DNA of 64,000 bases, from the NCBI GenBank assembly GCA_000092065.1, contig CP000587.1; one strand, written 5' to 3'. This document shows, one piece after another, positions 10,248-19,089 of the stretch. This stretch comes from Ostreococcus lucimarinus (Eukaryota). The position numbers and the translations under genes were made by a program. The notes under the pieces are model-generated. The model saw only the letters and a program-made list of their open reading frames with translations, did not search any database and was not told where the DNA came from. Numbering within the stretch: the first letter of the stretch is position 1; each line of letters begins with the position of its first letter.

Positions 10248-11897
10248 CTAGAAGCCGCATTTGCATTTCGGAATGTGCGAGATGGCTCGCTCGAGAACGT
10301 TCGTGGCGCGGACTCGGACGAGCGACCAGGCGTCTTCGAGTCTGGCCTGCGCGAGCGCGTCGACGTCGTCGTAAGAGTCTTCGAAACCGTGCACCGCAGC
10401 TAGTCGAAGCCAAAGCTGTGGTGCGCCGAATTTCGTTAGTTTGTGTGGTACCGTCGTCGGCGCGAGACATAAGCCATCACCCGAGGAATTCACGGCGCGG
10501 AGAAGATCGAGATTCATCGCGTTGAAATCGACGCCGTGCGACTCTTCCAATTCGGCGACTGTGAATCCGTTCGACGCCGCGCCGGTGAGACGAAATAATA
10601 TCATCGCGTCGTCCTCGTCTACCGAGTCGTCGATTTCGAATCTCAAGTCTTTCGCCATCGCGCGCGTCATCGCGCGCTTTACGCTCGGAATCGCGGCGAC
10701 GCACGACAGAGGTAAAGGTTGCTCGAGCGCTCGAATGTCTCGCATGATCTCTTCCTCGTTCAAGCCCACACCGATCACCACCAAACACGTGCTCGTCGCG
10801 CTCACGAGCTCACCCACGCTCGGCTCGAGCTCGAGTCGACGCTTGCCGGAAAAGTGGAAATCGTAGCTCTCTCGGTTTTCATCCTCGGCGAGAGTCAACA
10901 CGCCTTTGGCGCGAATCGTCGCCGCGGGCATCATCTTCGTCGCCCAATGCTGAAATCGCGCAAACACGAGCGGTGACGTGGTTTCGTGCGCCAGTGAGTT
11001 GCACGAGCTCTGCGAACCACCGGCAAAGTGCGTGGTCTTCCTCGACGGATCTAGTGATAGAGGACCGCGAACGACGATTTTTTGTTCCTCCGTCTTCGGT
11101 TTGCGTAATCGCCCGCCCGACGCCGAGAGCACGTAAGGAAGCGGCCCCGCGCCCCAATCGTGACCACTCTTTCCTTCCGGTTGCGGCACCATGTCGACGT
11201 CTAATATGCTCGTCAAAGGCACGTTGGCGTCGACGCATTCCAACACTCGAGCGCCTCGCGCCTTGTCCTCCACGACGGCTCGCGCGCGCGCCAATCTCTC
11301 TTCATCCCCCTCAAGTAAATCAATCTTATTCAGAAGCACGACGTCAGCGCACGCCAACTGCGCGTCCCACGCCTCTCGTTCGACCTCGGGTCCTCCTTCC
11401 GACGCAATCTCCGCGTCCACGACGCACACCACGCCGTCCAAACGCGCGCGCGTCAGCGCCCCAAAGTTCCTATCCAACCTCGAAACCACCTCCCCCGGAT
11501 CCACCAACCCGCTCGTTTCGATCAGCAGGTAATCAAACACCCCCAATTCCCCCCCGTTTTCGTCCGCGTTCAGCAGCTCGATCACCCCTCGCTCTAAATC
11601 GTCTCGCAGCGAGCAGCACACGCACCCGTTCGTCAGCTCCGTCACCCGCGCCGCCGCTCTCCCATCCTTTCCCTCGCCATCCCTCGCCCCGCTCGCGCGT
11701 CGAACCAACCGCGCGTCCACGTTCAGCGCCGCGAAATCGTTCACCGCCGCCGCGACGCGCAGCGTCTGTCGATTCTCCAGCGCGCGTCTCGCGAGCGTCG
11801 TCTTCCCCGCGCCCAGAAATCCAACCACCAGCGTGATCGGCAGCGTCCGCGACGCCGTCGCCGCGTACGCCGTGCGCAGTTCGTAGTTACGGAACAT
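10248..11897 (-). CDS. COG0523 / CobW-family G3E GTPase (putative zinc metallochaperone) with a long C-terminal extension
   Basis: A P-loop (GFLGAGKTT) sits right after the proposed start MFRNYEL. A CxCC motif (CVCCSL) and the LIETSGLVDP block follow. I chose the ATG at 11897 because it places the P-loop near the N-terminus. The ORF-track start at 12101 lies in low-complexity sequence. Confidence 0.8.
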   Translation of the reverse strand: MFRNYELRTAYAATASRTLPITLVVGFLGAGKTTLARRALENRQTLRVAAAVNDFAALNVDARLVRRASGARDGEGKDGRAAARVTELTNGCVCCSLRDDLERGVIELLNADENGGELGVFDYLLIETSGLVDPGEVVSRLDRNFGALTRARLDGVVCVVDAEIASEGGPEVEREAWDAQLACADVVLLNKIDLLEGDEERLARARAVVEDKARGARVLECVDANVPLTSILDVDMVPQPEGKSGHDWGAGPLPYVLSASGGRLRKPKTEEQKIVVRGPLSLDPSRKTTHFAGGSQSSCNSLAHETTSPLVFARFQHWATKMMPAATIRAKGVLTLAEDENRESYDFHFSGKRRLELEPSVGELVSATSTCLVVIGVGLNEEEIMRDIRALEQPLPLSCVAAIPSVKRAMTRAMAKDLRFEIDDSVDEDDAMILFRLTGAASNGFTVAELEESHGVDFNAMNLDLLRAVNSSGDGLCLAPTTVPHKLTKFGAPQLWLRLAAVHGFEDSYDDVDALAQARLEDAWSLVRVRATNVLERAISHIPKCKCGF

Positions 11898-12145
11898 GTT
11901 TATCGACGTCGATCGCGCCTCGCGTCGTCGTCGCGCGTCGTCGTCGTCGTCGTCGTCGTCGCGTCGTCCATCGCGTCTCTCGTCGTCATCCATCGCGTCG
12001 CGCGCGCGCGTCGCGCGGTCGACGCGTCGCGCCCCGACGCGTCGCGCGCCGTCGCGCGTCCCGTTCGGCGCGCGCTTCGCCGCGACGCGCGCGCCGAGCA
12101 TCCGCGCGCCGCGCGTCGCGGCGTCACACGCGCGCGCGCCGCGCG

Positions 12146-13990
12146 ATGCCGCCGACGCACCGTCGCGCGGCGTCGAGCGCGTCCCTCGACCTTCCCGCGG
12201 GCGACGCGGTGGAGCGCGACGCGCGGCGCGATCGCGCGCGCGCGCGGCGGCGCGCGCGCACGGCGATCGCGCGCGCGGCGGCGTTCGGCGCGGTCCTTCG
12301 CGGTGGGCTGAGCGTGGGGAAAATCGCGCTCGCGGCGACGAGGCGCGGAAGGCGCGGGACGACGGCGGGGAGGGCGCGGAAGGCGGTGCGAGACGTCGCG
12401 TCGTACGCGGCGTTCCTGGCGACGTTCGCGGGGACGTACGTGAGCGCGGACGAGGGCCTGCGAAGGCGGTACGGGGGAGAGGAGAGCAAGGCGTGGCGAT
12501 GCGCGTTGGCGGGCGCGTGCGCGGGGCCGTCGTTGATGCTCGCGGGGTCGGGCGCGACGCATTACGGGCTGGCGGGGTACATATGGGTGCGGTCGATCGT
12601 GCTGCTGACGCGCGTGGCGCAGAAGAGCGAGGATGAGACGATGAAGAGGTTGACGGCGGCGACGCGGATGGAACACGGGGACTGCGCGTTGATGGTGGGG
12701 AGCGCGGCGGTGATTTTGTCGTGCTTCATACTGAGGCCGGAGACGGTGGAACCGGCGTATAAACACTTTCTGGACGTGCACGGGGGGAAGACGAGGGAGG
12801 AGTACGCGGCGCTGCGGACGCTGTGCGAGGCGGGAGGGGATTCGGAGTTGCGCGCGCTGTGCGCGAGATTGGCGATTTCGAATACGTGGTCGGCGGGAAA
12901 GACGGCGCGGGAGATGGCGAATAAGACGGCGGTCGGCGCGATCGGTGCGGGAACCGGTGCGATCGATCGCGCGGAGTTGTATAGGATGATATTTTTCCGA
13001 GGCGCGTCCAACGCTGAGCACTTCTTGTCGCACGTGGTGAAGTCGTTTGCGGCTACGCTGAGCGTGTACGCGCCCGTGTACCTCGTTCCGGCGGCGTTGA
13101 TACACCGAGAGAAGCTTCTGTCGCGCGAGAAAGGGCCGGACTTGTTGTCTAGGATCGCCGTCGGTTCGGCGCGTTCGGCGTTGTTTCTATCGTCCTACGT
13201 CGGCGCGGCGTGGAGCGGAGTGGATTTAGCGAATCGAGCCTTCGGCGGAAGCTGCGACGGTCGTTCGTTAACGTTGGGCGTTTCCATGGCTGGTTTAGCG
13301 ACCTTCATCGAAAAGAAGTCTCGTCGGATGGAGTTAGCGATGTATTGCACGTCGCGCGCGATCGAAACCGCGGCGTTGATGGCGGTTTACCGCGGCTTTG
13401 TGCCGAATTGGATCCAGCGACGCCGCGGCGACATCTTCCTCTTCTCCATCGCCTCGGCGACGATCATGCACTGCTACAACACCGAACGCGACGTCTTCCG
13501 AAGTAAGTACCTTAGCGTGCTCGATTTCATATTCGGCTCGACCGGTCACGATTCGCAAAGCATCTCTCACGCCGCGAGTTATGAGATTTTATTCGAAGGC
13601 AACTTTGGCGAGAGCAAAAGAAAGCCGGCGGCTTCGCTGCCGCCCGGCGGCGAGCGAGAGATGCAACCGATTCGCACGTACGTCACCGAGGAACAATTCC
13701 ACGCCGCGAGTGCGGCGATGAAAGACACGCTGAGTGACGCTAGCGTGAGCGATATCCTCAAGATGTACGGCTTGTACAAACAAGCCACCGTCGGAGACGC
13801 GTGCAACCACCCGCGACCGAGCGTGATGGATCAAAGAGGTCGCGCCAAGTACTCGTCCTGGTCGCAATTCGAGGGCATGAGCGCCCAGCAAGCGATGACC
13901 GGGTATTGCATGCTCGTCGACGACTTGACGACCGCTGGGAAGTTTAAGACCGCCCCGGTCTCGCCCGCGTCATCGACCAACGCGGATTAG
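12146..13990 (+). CDS. TMEM135-like (PMP52/Tim17-family) membrane protein fused to a C-terminal acyl-CoA-binding (ACBP) domain
   Basis: The central region aligns to TMEM135 (LSVYAPVYLVPAALIHR..; FIEKKSRRMELAMYCTSRAIETAA resembles [22 protein letters not shown]). The C-terminal 90 aa form a canonical ACBP domain (LKMYGLYKQATVGDACNHPRPSVMDQRGRAKYSSWSQFEGMSAQQAM). The reading frame is continuous, so I call it a fusion. The N-terminal boundary is uncertain. Confidence 0.7.
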   Translation: MPPTHRRAASSASLDLPAGDAVERDARRDRARARRRARTAIARAAAFGAVLRGGLSVGKIALAATRRGRRGTTAGRARKAVRDVASYAAFLATFAGTYVSADEGLRRRYGGEESKAWRCALAGACAGPSLMLAGSGATHYGLAGYIWVRSIVLLTRVAQKSEDETMKRLTAATRMEHGDCALMVGSAAVILSCFILRPETVEPAYKHFLDVHGGKTREEYAALRTLCEAGGDSELRALCARLAISNTWSAGKTAREMANKTAVGAIGAGTGAIDRAELYRMIFFRGASNAEHFLSHVVKSFAATLSVYAPVYLVPAALIHREKLLSREKGPDLLSRIAVGSARSALFLSSYVGAAWSGVDLANRAFGGSCDGRSLTLGVSMAGLATFIEKKSRRMELAMYCTSRAIETAALMAVYRGFVPNWIQRRRGDIFLFSIASATIMHCYNTERDVFRSKYLSVLDFIFGSTGHDSQSISHAASYEILFEGNFGESKRKPAASLPPGGEREMQPIRTYVTEEQFHAASAAMKDTLSDASVSDILKMYGLYKQATVGDACNHPRPSVMDQRGRAKYSSWSQFEGMSAQQAMTGYCMLVDDLTTAGKFKTAPVSPASSTNAD

Positions 13991-14068: not shown

Positions 14069-14494
14069 ATGCTGGCCGCGCGCGCGACAACGACGACGCG
14101 CGCGACGGTGCAGACACCGCGCGCGCCCAGCGCGGGCGCGAGTCGCGCGCGCGTCGTCGCGCGCGCGTCGTTGAAACAATCCGCATCCAGCTTGGTCGCG
14201 CACGCCGCGGTCGCGCTCACCGTCGCCAATCCCGCCCTCGCCGACGCCCTCGCCGCCGTGGATGACGTTCCGCTGACGAAATCGCCCGCGTTCCTCGGAT
14301 TCGCGTGCGTCGCGGTGTGCTGGGGGATCCCACAAACGCTGGGAACGGCGATTTTGTCGCAAAAGGAAGCGAAGGGACGCGCGCTGTTGCAGAAGCGAGG
14401 CATCGACACGTCGGACATCGGGCAGGGTAATTGGGGGAAGGTGCAGCGTCGTTTGCAAGAGAACGACATAGATTGGAAGAACGAGGAAGCTTAG
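14069..14494 (+). CDS. Hypothetical small protein with a transit-peptide-like N-terminus and one hydrophobic segment
   Basis: A 141-aa ORF. The first 35 aa are rich in R, A, S and T. It contains a hydrophobic helix (FLGFACVAVCWGIPQTLGTAIL). Codon usage resembles that of neighbouring genes. I recognise no family. Confidence 0.4.
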   Translation: MLAARATTTTRATVQTPRAPSAGASRARVVARASLKQSASSLVAHAAVALTVANPALADALAAVDDVPLTKSPAFLGFACVAVCWGIPQTLGTAILSQKEAKGRALLQKRGIDTSDIGQGNWGKVQRRLQENDIDWKNEEA

Positions 14495-16260: not shown

Positions 16261-16517
16261 GTTCGCGAGCGCGTCGAGCGTGCGCGCGTGTCGTAAATTA
16301 TTTAGCGCGCGTCGAACCGCGCGGTCGCGTCGTCGCGATGTGTCGCGCGCCGCGCGCCGTCGGCCGGCGTCCAATCGGGTCGACGCGACCAACCGTCGCG
16401 CCCAAGAGTCGACAACGCCGACCGTCCCCGCGCGCCGTTCAGGACTCAACACGAGGGGGGGGGTCCGTCCGGGGGGGGTCGTCGACCGGTCTCGACCCGT
16501 CGTCCGACGTGGGGACG

Positions 16518-16625
16518 TTTTCGCCCTCGCGTGGCGACGCGACGTTTTCGCCCTCGCGTGGCGACGCGCCGTTTTCGCCCTCGCGTGGCGACGCGCCGTT
16601 TTCGCCCCCGCGTGGCGACGCGCGC
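16518..16625. repeat. 27-bp x4 tandem repeat in the shared upstream region of the AMT (minus) and CSL4 (plus) genes
   Basis: Four units of gttttcgccctcgcgtggcgacgcgac. The plus frame reads FSPSRGDA[TP] four times. It lies between the AMT ATG at 16260 and the CSL4 ATG at 16662. Confidence 0.8.
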
Positions 16626-17328: not shown

Positions 17329-18219
17329 TCATGGGGTTCCATCTGTCGTGTTCGTCGTCGGTGAGCGCGCGAACCACGATGGTTCGGGTTGCGCGCGCGG
17401 AAGGCGAACGAAAGCCGCGTCTTCGACGGCGTCGAGGGACGACGCGTCGACGGCGTCGACGTAATCCGCAAACTCAGAAAATCTATACGGTTCAGCCATC
17501 AAGTCTTCGTAATCGTCGTCGCGCTCGTCGATGAGTGGCTCGCCCACGCCGTCGTCAACGTTGTCATCATCCGCCAGTTGGCGCTTGACCCAGCGAACGA
17601 ACGGGTTGGTGTCGGAAAGTCGTCTCCAGTCTTCGTCGCGTTCGCCGCTTTCTCCGTGCGTCAGGCGCTGCACGCGCACGATGGCCGCCCGCGCGCCCTC
17701 GGCCACGATCACTTTCGCTTGCTTCGCGAACTCTCTCAACTCGTCCCTCAGCGTCATCTCTTCTTCGGAGTCCGAGTCGTCCAACTGACGGGCGCCTCGC
17801 GCGTTTCGGCCGCTCGCGCCGCGGCGTCGCTCTCCGAGCGCCCGCGCGCCGCCCAACCCGATCCCCACGTACACCAGCCCCGACACCACGATCAGCGTCA
17901 GCGCGGTAAAAATCACCAACGCCGCCCCGTCCGCGGTTCGCGCGATCGTCGGCGGCGGCGGCGACGGCGGCGGCGGCGGCGACGGCGGCGACCTCGGCGT
18001 CGGCGACGGCGGCGACCTCGGCGGGTGCGGCGCGCGCGGCGCCGGCGGCGGTCGCGGCGGTCGCGGCGGCGCCGGCGCCGGCGGCGCCTCGGGATACTCC
18101 GGATACGGCGGGTACGGCGGCGCGTCGACGGCCGCGGCGCTCGCCATCATCGTCATCGCGATCGCCGCGCGCGCGAGCGCGACGCGACGCGCGCCGACGC
18201 GTCGCGCGCGCGCGCGCAT
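17329..18219 (-). CDS. Proline-rich (HRGP-like) type-I membrane protein with an acidic cytoplasmic tail
   Basis: Signal-peptide-like N-terminus (RVALARAAIAMTMMASAAAVDA). Then a 60-aa Pro-rich block (PPAPAPPRPPRPPPAP...SPPPPT), one TM helix (ALVIFTALTLIVVSGLVYVGIGL), and a D/E-rich tail. The start is chosen at the ATG at 18219. Confidence 0.5.
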   Translation of the reverse strand: MRARARRVGARRVALARAAIAMTMMASAAAVDAPPYPPYPEYPEAPPAPAPPRPPRPPPAPRAPHPPRSPPSPTPRSPPSPPPPPSPPPPTIARTADGAALVIFTALTLIVVSGLVYVGIGLGGARALGERRRGASGRNARGARQLDDSDSEEEMTLRDELREFAKQAKVIVAEGARAAIVRVQRLTHGESGERDEDWRRLSDTNPFVRWVKRQLADDDNVDDGVGEPLIDERDDDYEDLMAEPYRFSEFADYVDAVDASSLDAVEDAAFVRLPRAQPEPSWFARSPTTNTTDGTP

Positions 18220-18331
18220 GGCGCGCTCACGCCCGTCGCATCGCGCCCGCGCGATCGGAGCGCGGAGACGTGCGCGCGCGCGGCGGTGTGCCGCACATCG
18301 CGTCGCGCATCGACACCCATCATCGATCGTC

Positions 18332-18691
18332 ATGGCGACGCTCGAAGAGTTTAACGCCGCCGCGGAGGCGATCAAGGCCGTGAAAGAGGTGCGCCGATCG
18401 CGACGACGATCGCTCGCGCCGACGCGACGACGCGACGCGACGCGACGACGCGATGACTGAGCGAAAACCGCGAACGATGGATAGACGACGAACGAAGAGA
18501 TGCTCGAGCTGTACGCGCTGTTCAAGCAAGCGAACGTCGGAGACGTGAACACCGCGCGACCGGGGATGATGGATTTTAAGGGCAAGGCGAAGTGGGACGC
18601 GTGGAAAAAGCGCGAGGGGACGTCGAAGGAGGACGCCATGACGGCGTACGTCGCGTTGGTCGCCGAGCTAAAGTCAAAGTACGGGAAGTGA
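18332..18691 (+). CDS. ACBP: Acyl-CoA-binding protein (ACBP), two exons: join(18332..18388,18485..18691)
   Basis: Exon 1 encodes [19 protein letters not shown]. The intron at 18389..18484 is 96 nt. It starts GTGCGCC, has a GATGACTGAG branch, and ends ATAG. Exon 2 encodes [68 protein letters not shown]. Joined, this gives a full-length 87-aa ACBP. Confidence 0.85.
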
Positions 18692-18794
18692 GCGCGCGTC
18701 GCGCGAACCGTCGCGATAGTGCGCTCGCGTTGTGAATGAACGACGTTCATCGTCGCGTCGCCGACGGGCGTCGCGTCGAGATTTGAATTTGACG

Positions 18795-18865
18795 TCGACG
18801 CCGACGACGCGACTCGACTCGACGCCGACGACGCGACTCGACGCCGACGACGCGACTCGACGCCG
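18795..18865. repeat. About 20-bp x3-4 tandem repeat (cgacgccgacgacgcgactcga) between the ACBP 3' end and the PP2C 5' end
   Basis: The run cgacgccgacgacgcgactcgactcgacgccgacgacgcgactcgacgccgacgacgcgactcgacgcc is directly visible. Confidence 0.7.
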
Positions 18866-19089
18866 CACTGCGCGCCGCGGCGCGACGAACCAGCGCGCGA
18901 GCGCACGCGAAGAGACGCGCACGAGTGATACCGCGCGCGCGCGTCGACGACGATCGCGCGAGCGCGGCGCGCGCGACGACCACGCGCGCGCGTTGATTCG
19001 CATTCGACGCGGCGGCGCGTTCGACCGCGCGCGCGCGCGCGGCGCGCGTCTCCGCGCTCGACGCGCGCGCGAAAGACGCGAGAGACGTC

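What the first reader, a model, noticed from the sequence alone, without database searches (positions are those of the whole stretch)
12146..13990. TMEM135-like membrane protein fused in frame to a C-terminal ACBP domain, with a second stand-alone ACBP gene 4.5 kb away
The central part of this ORF aligns well to TMEM135 (PMP52), a peroxisome/mitochondria membrane protein linked to lipid handling. The last 90 aa form a canonical acyl-CoA-binding domain (YKQATVGD...GKAKW-type motifs). There is no stop and no intron signal between the two parts. A fusion would tie TMEM135 function directly to acyl-CoA binding. A separate conventional 87-aa ACBP with one intron sits at 18332..18691.
Basis: partly seen in the sequence, partly recalled or inferred. 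Interest (0 to 1): 0.55.

Follow-up and report, generated by a model that had tools for sequence, protein, structure and literature searches.

The report
TMEM135–acyl-CoA-binding fusion gene in Ostreococcus
In the tiny marine green alga Ostreococcus, one intron-less gene joins a TMEM135-type organelle membrane protein, whose molecular job is still unknown, to a working-looking acyl-CoA-binding domain, which hints that TMEM135 proteins handle activated fatty acids.

Summary
Window 12146..13990 (+) is one uninterrupted 614-aa ORF.

- **TMEM135 body:** residues 24-483 are homologous to green-lineage "transmembrane protein 135 homologs" (E about 1e-65 to 1e-78). The body consists of two mutually homologous Tim17-like halves.
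- **ACBP domain:** residues 515-591 form a canonical ACBP domain (Pfam 72 bits). All five classical ligand-contact residues are conserved.
- **Linker:** a roughly 25-residue disordered stretch that varies in length and sequence joins the two parts.
- **Organism:** the window is Ostreococcus lucimarinus, because a neighbouring ORF is identical to XP_001418673.1.
- **Conservation:** the fusion is kept, in conserved synteny, in at least 7 Ostreococcus lineages at 59-66% identity. These include O. tauri XP_022839417.1, which is annotated only as an acyl-CoA-binding protein.
- **Transcript:** an MMETSP transcript ORF spans the junction.
- **Distribution:** Micromonas pusilla and a Bathycoccus-like orthologue lack the ACBP domain. 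No other TMEM135–ACBP fusion appeared among the 150 best hits of a search of 1.84 billion representative proteins.
- **Second gene:** the 87-aa ACBP gene with one conserved intron (18332..18691) is also real.

Most likely function: a membrane-tethered acyl-CoA capture module hard-wired to TMEM135, working like peroxisomal ACBD5. Localisation and topology were not tested. I found no paper that describes the fusion. It is a new variant of known kinds and of moderate interest.

The parts
12146..13990 (+). Complete single-exon CDS of the TMEM135-ACBP fusion protein (614 aa plus stop)
   Evidence: ORF list and sequence. A 99%-identical protein, P0001, and orthologues at 59-66% identity have the same architecture.
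12146..12214 (+). Variable N-terminal extension (residues 1-23), poorly conserved and predicted disordered
   Evidence: Mean amino-acid identity 0.26 and dN about 1.0 between lineages. pLDDT is below 50 for residues 1-14.
12233..12745 (+). First Tim17-like helical half of the TMEM135 body (residues 30-200; helices at about 38-65, 73-109, 118-133, 140-160, 178-196)
12746..13009 (+). Helical, non-hydrophobic insert between the two halves (residues 201-288)
   Evidence: AF2 helices 203-284. No hydrophobic 19-residue window lies in this stretch.
13010..13543 (+). Second Tim17-like half (residues 289-466), containing the most conserved motif of the family (IEKKSRRMEL, residues 388-397) and the Pfam TMEM135_C_rich match (299-414)
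   Evidence: Pfam PF15982 at 24.3 bits. Invariant columns E389, R393, R394, E396 and Y400. hhalign repeat.
13544..13681 (+). Tether (residues 467-512). A conserved GHDSQSISHAASYEILF segment (467-483) is followed by a disordered linker that varies in length and sequence (484-512).
   Evidence: pLDDT below 50 for residues 468-508. Linker length and sequence vary between lineages (alignment). dN is 0.54.
13682..13945 (+). Acyl-CoA-binding (ACB) four-helix domain (residues 513-600; Pfam match 515-591 = nt 13688-13918). The ligand-contact residues are Y541, Y544, K545, K568 and Y587.
13946..13990 (+). Variable C-terminal tail (residues 601-614) and stop codon. There is no PTS1-like tripeptide.
   Evidence: pLDDT below 50 for residues 602-614. 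C-termini differ between lineages (NAD, DTF, STR, TGE, TKS, SST).
18332..18388 (+). Exon 1 of the stand-alone small ACBP gene ([19 protein letters not shown])
   Evidence: Sequence. Conserved exon 1 followed by a GT donor in L003 and L016.
18389..18484 (+). Intron of the stand-alone ACBP gene (96 nt, GTGCGC...GATAG, phase 0)
   Evidence: Sequence. Same position, with different length and sequence, in two other Ostreococcus lineages.
18485..18691 (+). Exon 2 of the stand-alone ACBP gene ([20 protein letters not shown]...KYGK plus stop). The spliced product is 87 aa.
   Evidence: Pfam ACBP at 92-100 bits. The exon-2 ORF is an exact match to a protein seen on 611 contigs.

Best explanation
This is a genuine fusion gene that is conserved in, and specific to, the genus Ostreococcus; the window is O. 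lucimarinus. It encodes one polypeptide with three parts. The first is a TMEM135/PMP52-type polytopic organelle membrane protein made of two homologous Tim17-like halves. The second is a flexible tether. The third is a small-ACBP-type acyl-CoA-binding four-helix domain that keeps its ligand-contact residues.

Proposed mechanism (inferred): the ACB domain sits on the same side of the membrane as the N-terminus, most likely the cytosolic face of the peroxisome. There it captures long-chain or very-long-chain acyl-CoA esters. On its roughly 25-45-residue leash it holds them at the TMEM135 body, so that acyl groups are handed to or taken from whatever TMEM135 or its partners move or process. This is the job that the separate tail-anchored proteins ACBD5 and ACBD4 do at animal peroxisomes.

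Shown here: the ORF, homology of both parts, the fold, conservation of binding residues, conservation of the fusion, and a transcript across the junction. Inferred only: ligand binding, organelle, topology, and functional coupling between the two parts.
For: - **ORF and domains:**
- **TMEM135 homology:** (named plant and algal TMEM135 homologues, E=1e-65 to 1e-78; 43 of 46 homologues hit PF15982, 12 of 46 hit Tim17).
- **Internal duplication of a Tim17-like unit:** (hhalign 96.4%, E=1.4e-9).
- **Ligand residues:** Y541, Y544, K545, K568 and Y587, equivalent to bovine/human ACBP Y28, Y31, K32, K54 and Y73, are conserved in all 10 fusion sequences apart from one Y-to-F change.
- **Conservation of the fusion:** it is present in at least 7 lineages at 59-66% identity in the same gene neighbourhood, GCN1-DnaJ-Trx-CobW-[fusion]-small ORF-Amt-EXOSC1-x-ACBP-PP2C. 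This includes O. tauri XP_022839417.1.
- **Constraint:** dN is 0.28 for the membrane body and 0.48 for the ACB domain, against about 1.0 for the termini, with synonymous sites saturated.
- **Transcript:** ORF P0069 equals residues 131-614.
- **Literature context:** TMEM135 is a double-Tim17 peroxisomal protein of unknown function that is linked to fatty-acid metabolism (PMC5072337, PMC7829553). It has been proposed to export DHA from peroxisomes (PMC10993500).
Against: - No localisation or topology data exist for any green-lineage TMEM135 homologue. Hydropathy and charge counts did not settle the orientation.
- There is no PTS1 and no FFAT-like motif.
- The fusion is confined to one genus. M. 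pusilla and a Bathycoccus-like orthologue do without it, so the linkage is not required for TMEM135 function.
- ACB domains are promiscuous fusion partners: STIMATE, FAD-oxidase and tandem arrays were seen. This weakens the Rosetta-stone logic.
- The ACB domain evolves faster than the membrane body.
- The transcript evidence does not cover the first 130 codons.
Confidence: 0.6

Rival explanations
1. The fusion is an artefact. Under this reading, two adjacent genes (a TMEM135 homologue and an ACBP) appear joined because of an assembly or sequencing error, chance loss of a stop codon in one strain, or read-through.
For: Many of the homologue sequences come from prokaryote-style gene calling on metagenome contigs. 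The MMETSP ORF covers only residues 131-614.
Against: The same uninterrupted ORF occurs in hundreds of independent assemblies: clusters of 99 and 194 members. It occurs in at least 7 lineages that have diverged to synonymous saturation. It occurs in the curated O. tauri annotation as a 611-aa protein. A transcriptome ORF crosses the junction. No stop codon or GT..AG pair interrupts the linker.
Confidence: 0.03
2. The fusion is real but functionally uncoupled. Under this reading, TMEM135 merely serves as a convenient membrane anchor that places an ACBP at some organelle surface, as the N-terminal helix does for Arabidopsis ACBP1/2. The fusion would then say nothing specific about what TMEM135 does.
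For: The fusion is restricted to one genus and is absent from sister genera. ACB domains are found fused to many unrelated partners. The long, disordered, variable linker imposes no fixed geometry between the two parts.
Against: TMEM135 in animals is independently linked to fatty-acid, DHA and peroxisomal lipid handling (PMC7829553, PMC10993500). The partner is therefore not random with respect to acyl-CoA biology. The fusion has been retained throughout the radiation of the genus, with constraint on both parts.
Confidence: 0.22
3. The ACB-like domain no longer binds acyl-CoA and has been repurposed. It might act as a protein-protein interaction module or as a sensor of another ligand.
For: It is more divergent than typical small ACBPs: 42% identity to the neighbouring ACBP and mean 53% identity between lineages. 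The GKAKW motif has become GRAKY/F.
Against: All five classical ligand-contact residues are conserved across lineages. The Pfam score is far above threshold over the full model length 1-76. The predicted fold superposes on ACBD5 at 1.6 A.
Confidence: 0.12

Closest known systems
TMEM135 / PMP52 (Tim17 superfamily; animal peroxisomal and mitochondria-associated membrane protein)
   Same: Residues 24-483 are homologous to proteins named TMEM135 homologues. The body is built from two mutually homologous Tim17-like helical halves, as described for the family (PMC5072337).
   Different: This protein carries a C-terminal ACB domain, which was not found on any other TMEM135 homologue among the 150 best hits of a search of 1.84e9 representatives. 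In this protein the Pfam 'N-terminal cysteine-rich' model matches the second half and Tim17 matches the first half. Localisation in the green lineage is unknown.
ACBD5 / ACBD4 (animal peroxisomal tail-anchored ACB-domain proteins)
   Different: It is not a homologue beyond the ACB domain. By sequence, the ACB domain is closer to small cytosolic ACBPs (E=5e-13) than to ACBD4 or ACBD5 (E=4e-9 and 4e-7). Here the domain is C-terminal, the anchor is a polytopic double-Tim17 protein rather than a single tail anchor, and no FFAT-like motif is present.
Plant membrane-associated or large ACBPs (Arabidopsis ACBP1/2, class II; ACBP3, class III)
   Same: They belong to the green lineage and are membrane-associated, with an ACB domain plus extra sequence. 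A domain-count survey reports four ACBP genes in O. lucimarinus (PMC7883581), and this gene is presumably one of them.
   Different: No ankyrin or kelch repeats were detected. The membrane part here is a full TMEM135 protein and not a single N-terminal helix.
Small cytosolic ACBP / DBI (including the neighbouring gene at 18332..18691)
   Same: The fold and ligand-contact residues are the same. The best non-fusion sequence relatives found are stand-alone ACBPs of 84-87 aa. Identity to the neighbouring gene is 42%.
   Different: The fused copy has no intron at the position where the stand-alone gene has a conserved one. It is more divergent, and it is covalently tied to a membrane protein.

Membership tests
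ACBP (Pfam PF00887) | Profile match above the curated threshold over the whole domain | tested here: met
   72.4 bits against a cut-off of 28.3, with model positions 1-76 of 76 matched to residues 515-591.
ACBP (Pfam PF00887) | Four-helix up-down-down-up bundle | tested here: met
ACBP (Pfam PF00887) | Conserved acyl-CoA contact residues (bovine Y28, Y31, K32, K54, Y73) | tested here: met
   Y541, Y544, K545, K568 and Y587 are present in the window protein and in 9 further fusion sequences (a 99%-identical copy and 8 orthologues), with one Y544F exception.
ACBP (Pfam PF00887) | Binds long-chain acyl-CoA esters | not testable with these tools
   This needs ITC or a Lipidex assay on the recombinant domain.
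TMEM135 / PMP52 | Sequence homology to recognised TMEM135 proteins | tested here: met
   phmmer E=1e-65 to 1e-78 to proteins named 'transmembrane protein 135 homolog' or 'TMEM135 N-terminal domain-containing' in land plants and algae, covering 70-78% of the query. 43 of 46 aligned homologues hit PF15982.
TMEM135 / PMP52 | Pfam PF15982 (TMEM135_C_rich) above the gathering threshold in this protein itself | tested here: inconclusive
   24.3 bits against a cut-off of 27 (E=5e-5) for the window protein, and 22.8 bits for O. tauri P0476. The orthologues P0013 (33.8 bits) and P0017 (31.7 bits) pass. This is a threshold issue and not a sign of missing homology.
TMEM135 / PMP52 | Two linked Tim17-family domains (PMC5072337) | tested here: met
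TMEM135 / PMP52 | Peroxisomal (and mitochondria-associated) membrane localisation | not testable with these tools
   No targeting predictor or experimental data are available. There is no PTS1. No paper on a green-lineage TMEM135 was found.
ACBD4 / ACBD5 type | N-terminal ACB domain with a C-terminal single-pass tail anchor | tested here: not met
   The ACB domain is C-terminal, and the membrane part is an N-terminal polytopic body of about 10 helices.
ACBD4 / ACBD5 type | FFAT-like motif for VAP binding | tested here: not met
   A permissive 7-position FFAT pattern found no match in any of the 10 fusion sequences. This was a simple pattern scan and not a validated scorer.
Plant class II / IV ACBPs | Ankyrin or kelch repeats accompanying the ACB domain | tested here: not met
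   Pfam reports only ACBP and TMEM135_C_rich at E<=0.1.

The most novel reading that the evidence does not exclude
The Ostreococcus fusion is a true Rosetta stone. On this reading, TMEM135 proteins in general are acyl-CoA or fatty-acyl conduits, or acceptors, in the peroxisomal membrane, and they normally depend on a separate ACB-domain protein (ACBD5, ACBD4 or ACBP) for substrate delivery or removal. In Ostreococcus the substrate-handling module has been hard-wired onto the channel. That would name the long-sought substrate class of TMEM135. It would fit the proposed role of mammalian TMEM135 in DHA export from peroxisomes. It would also fit the acyl-CoA-based PUFA metabolism of this DHA-rich alga; that last point rests on my own background knowledge and was not tested here.
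Probability: 0.2. Interest if true: 0.75.

Novelty: new variant of a known kind. Interest (0 to 1): 0.45.

Why it matters
TMEM135/PMP52 is conserved across eukaryotes. In mice it is linked to retinal ageing, mitochondrial fission, fat storage and DHA homeostasis, yet reviews still list its molecular activity as unknown (PMC5072337, PMC7829553, PMC10993500). A natural fusion to an acyl-CoA-binding domain, kept under selection, is independent comparative evidence that its business is activated fatty acids.

The fusion also offers a tractable system. O. tauri is genetically manipulable, and one polypeptide carries both modules. This allows tests of ligand, topology and coupling.

There is a practical point for annotation as well. 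The TMEM135 half scores just below Pfam's threshold in both O. lucimarinus and O. tauri. Public annotation therefore calls the protein only an ACBP-domain protein, and the architecture is effectively hidden. For plant and algal ACBP classification, it adds an architecture outside classes I-IV.

Tried and rejected
- **Sequence search of the membrane body against PDB chains:** no hit at E<=1, so no TMEM135 relative with a solved structure was found by sequence.
- **Literature:** no paper contains both TMEM135 and Ostreococcus. Papers with TMEM135 and 'acyl-CoA binding' mention them separately. WGS prefixes and O. tauri accessions gave nothing. TMEM135 with Arabidopsis or Chlamydomonas returned only evolutionary surveys.
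- **Topology from Kyte-Doolittle hydropathy and loop K+R counts:** inconclusive. The helices are only weakly hydrophobic, as is usual for Tim17-type proteins, and both flanks of helix 1 are basic.
- **dN/dS:** synonymous sites are saturated (pS 0.62-0.75), so I report only relative dN between regions.
- **Origin of the fused ACB domain:** the last word-indexed search returned only 22 candidates, all small stand-alone ACBPs at 46-59% identity over part of the domain. The donor gene cannot be named. The neighbouring ACBP, at 42% identity, is no closer than others.
- **A pre-fusion state with an ACBP gene just downstream of TMEM135:** not seen in the M. pusilla-like or other non-fusion loci.
- **Other TMEM135–ACBP fusions:** I checked 20 multi-stretch or long hits from the exhaustive search and none has both domains.
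- **First organism-identification attempt with a PP2C search:** it returned no named close relatives. An exact-match look-up of the neighbouring 141-aa ORF solved it.
Full report
**1. The observation**

Window 12146..13990 (+) is a single ORF of 614 codons from ATG to TAG, and nothing interrupts it.

Pfam finds a full-length ACBP domain at residues 515-591: PF00887, 72.4 bits against a cut-off of 28.3, E=3.5e-20. It also finds a sub-threshold match to the TMEM135 model PF15982 at residues 299-414: 24.3 bits against a cut-off of 27, E=5e-5.

Exon 1 is at 18332-18388 ([19 protein letters not shown]). A 96-nt GT..AG intron lies at 18389-18484. Exon 2 is at 18485-18691. The spliced product is an 87-aa canonical ACBP. 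The same phase-0 intron position, with different intron sequence and length, is found in two other lineages, L003 and L016. Coordinates and content are therefore confirmed.

**2. Organism**

The 141-aa ORF just downstream of the fusion (14069..14491) is identical, residue for residue, to XP_001418673.1/ABO96966.1, 'predicted protein [Ostreococcus lucimarinus CCE9901]'. The window has 61% G+C and about one gene per 1.4 kb, which fits that genome. I treat the window as O. lucimarinus or a near-identical strain.

**3. The TMEM135 part**

A search of 5.8 billion proteins gives full-length relatives.
- Below the fusion group come proteins of 526-564 aa at 37-46% identity without ACBP. One cluster contains Micromonas pusilla CCMP1545 XP_003058192.1, which UniRef names 'Transmembrane protein 135 N-terminal domain-containing protein'.
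- Further down come chlorophyte and land-plant proteins named 'transmembrane protein 135 homolog' and similar, at 33-38% identity and E=1e-61 to 1e-77, covering about 70-78% of the query.

Of 46 aligned family members, 43 hit PF15982 and 12 hit Tim17 PF02466 at E<0.001.

The two halves of the body are homologous to each other. In hhalign of the residue 30-200 profile against the 285-466 profile, residues 76-199 align with 333-449 at probability 96.4% and E=1.4e-9.

An AlphaFold2 model built on the 46-sequence alignment is confident, with mean pLDDT 85 and pTM 0.71. It shows about ten long helices in two sets of five, with a helical non-hydrophobic insert (about 201-288) between them.

**4. The ACB part**

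- **Sequence.** The domain matches solved ACBPs from rice, human and cattle at E=5e-13 to 2e-11.
- **Ligand contacts.** Mapping through the alignment to human ACBP (2cb8), the classical contacts Y28, Y31, K32, K54 and Y73 correspond to Y541, Y544, K545, K568 and Y587. All are conserved in the ten fusion sequences examined, apart from one Y-to-F change.
- **Relatives.** By sequence the domain resembles small cytosolic ACBPs more than ACBD4 or ACBD5. The only non-fusion relatives returned by a last, shallow search are stand-alone ACBPs of 84-87 aa. Identity to the neighbouring stand-alone ACBP is 42%, so the donor gene cannot be identified.

**5. The junction**

After the last helix and a conserved motif (GHDSQSISHAASYEILF, residues 467-483), the model is disordered up to residue 508 (pLDDT below 50). 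This stretch varies in length and sequence between lineages (alignment). It looks like a flexible tether.

**6. Is the fusion real and selected?**

- **Conservation.** Proteins with the same architecture form at least seven lineages at 59-66% identity to the window protein: P0002, P0003/4, P0005, P0006, P0007 and P0008/9. The P0006 cluster contains the curated O. tauri protein XP_022839417.1/CEF98698.1 (611 aa), named 'FERM/acyl-CoA-binding protein, 3-helical bundle'.
- **Synteny.** Every locus fetched shows the same neighbourhood: GCN1, DnaJ, thioredoxin, CobW-like, fusion, small ORF, ammonium transporter, EXOSC1-like, x, small ACBP, PP2C. These are therefore orthologues.
- **Constraint.** Between six lineages synonymous sites are saturated (pS 0.62-0.75). 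Non-synonymous divergence is 0.28 in the membrane body, 0.48 in the ACB domain and 0.54 in the linker region, against about 1.0 in the N- and C-terminal tails. Both domains are constrained, and the reading frame has stayed open through all that divergence.
- **Transcript.** A transcriptome-derived ORF from MMETSP (P0069, 484 aa) equals residues 131-614 with one substitution. An mRNA therefore runs from the first half of TMEM135 through the ACB domain. It does not cover the first 130 codons.

The artefact explanation is not tenable.

**7. Distribution**

- M. pusilla lacks the ACB domain. Its locus has different neighbours and no ACBP gene downstream.
- A very abundant 532-546-aa orthologue cluster, P0164, sits on a contig with 50% G+C. 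That is the composition expected of Bathycoccus; this assignment is an inference. It shares the SYEILF motif but ends without an ACB domain.
- An exhaustive HMMER search of 1.84 billion representatives found 2398 relatives. The fusion is represented by one 50%-identity cluster (P0003) plus fragments.
- I scanned the ten hits whose best match lay in the ACB region. All are tandem-ACBP or other ACBP fusions without TMEM135. I also scanned ten long, multi-stretch TMEM135 hits, and none has ACBP.

Within the reach of these searches, the fusion arose once, in the Ostreococcus lineage.

**8. Mechanism**

*What is shown.* One polypeptide carries a double-Tim17 membrane body, a flexible leash, and an ACB domain with an intact binding signature.

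*What is known from the literature.*
- TMEM135/PMP52 is a peroxisomal membrane protein in animals, also reported at mitochondria, with unknown molecular function. It is grouped with 'uncharacterized putative transporters' (PMC7829553, PMC5072337).
- Mouse mutants lose DHA-containing lipids, which led to the proposal that it exports DHA from peroxisomes (PMC10993500).
- ACBD5 and ACBD4 are ACB-domain proteins anchored at the peroxisome. These names appear together with TMEM135 only in reviews.

*Inference.* The Ostreococcus protein places an acyl-CoA-binding head within a few nanometres of TMEM135. It would concentrate acyl-CoA there, or accept it there, which is the arrangement animals achieve with separate proteins. 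An even number of helices (5+5, or 4+4) puts the ACB domain on the same side as the basic N-terminus. I could not establish which side that is. No PTS1 or FFAT-like motif is present.

*My estimates.*
| Claim | Probability |
|---|---|
| The fusion gene is real | about 0.95 |
| The ACB domain binds acyl-CoA | about 0.75 |
| It acts as a peroxisomal acyl-CoA hand-off device | about 0.35-0.4 |

**9. Rivals**

- **Artefact:** about 0.03.
- **Real fusion, but TMEM135 is only an anchor:** about 0.2. This is supported by the narrow distribution, the promiscuity of ACB domains and the floppy linker.
- **Repurposed, non-binding ACB domain:** about 0.1. The conserved contact residues argue against it.

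**10. Comparison and novelty**

The protein is a member of the ACBP family and of the TMEM135 family; see the membership table. The one caveat is that its own PF15982 score is below Pfam's cut-off. It works like ACBD5 but is not a member of that group, because the ACB domain is C-terminal, the anchor is polytopic, and there is no FFAT motif. It fits none of plant ACBP classes II or IV.

I found no paper that mentions the architecture. The TMEM135 half is below curated thresholds in both O. lucimarinus and O. tauri, so public annotation presents it simply as an ACBP-domain protein. I rate it a new variant of known kinds: a new domain architecture, specific to one genus.

Interest is moderate at 0.45. 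It gives the open question of TMEM135's molecular function a concrete, testable lead. However, a link between TMEM135 and fatty-acid metabolism is already suspected, and inference from a gene fusion in one genus is weak evidence on its own.

Noticed in passing
P0182 (protein; not in the window): A 722-aa TMEM135 homologue carries TMEM135_C_rich at residues 204-318 and an Mpv17/PMP22 domain (PF04117, 71.5 bits) at residues 568-627. This would be a second peroxisomal-membrane family fused to TMEM135. It could also be a merged gene model. The source organism is unknown.
   Followed up: no
P0162, P0163, P0174, P0187, P0247 (proteins; not in the window): Other unusual ACBP architectures turned up: 9x, 7x and 5x tandem ACBP arrays; 5x ACBP with FAD_binding_4/FAD-oxidase_C; and a STIMATE membrane domain with 3x ACBP. 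They show how freely ACB domains are recombined.
   Followed up: partly
window 13040-13387 (residues 299-414) and homologues P0017, P0044: In green-lineage TMEM135 homologues, the Pfam model called 'N-terminal cysteine-rich region of TMEM135' matches the C-terminal half, and Tim17 PF02466 matches the N-terminal half. This fits the remark in PMC5072337 that the two Tim17 domains were swapped during evolution.
   Followed up: partly
window 16516-16623: A near-perfect tandem repeat of 27 nt x 4 copies (97% matches; unit CGTTTTCGCCCTCGCGTGGCGACGCGC) lies in the short divergent intergenic region between the ammonium-transporter gene (minus strand) and the EXOSC1-like gene (plus strand). It may be a cis-regulatory element.
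   Followed up: no
window 12102-12145: The longest ORFs of the divergently transcribed CobW-like gene (10248..12101, minus strand) and the fusion gene (start 12146) leave only 44 bp between their start codons. Gene callers elsewhere prefer a CobW start about 100 bp further in. Either way the shared promoter region is extremely short.
   Followed up: no
window 17329-18906 (minus strand): A 525-aa ORF on the minus strand overlaps the stand-alone ACBP gene on the plus strand. Only its 3' portion (about 17333-18223, 296 aa) is called as a gene in the near-identical contig L001. That portion is a proline-rich protein containing PPRPPRPPPAP...PPPPPSPPPP. The remainder is probably a spurious high-GC ORF.
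   Followed up: partly
window 14069-14494: The 141-aa ORF between the fusion gene and the ammonium transporter has no Pfam domain on record. It is conserved in position in all Ostreococcus lineages examined (141-157 aa) and is identical to O. lucimarinus XP_001418673.1. Its function is unknown.
   Followed up: partly
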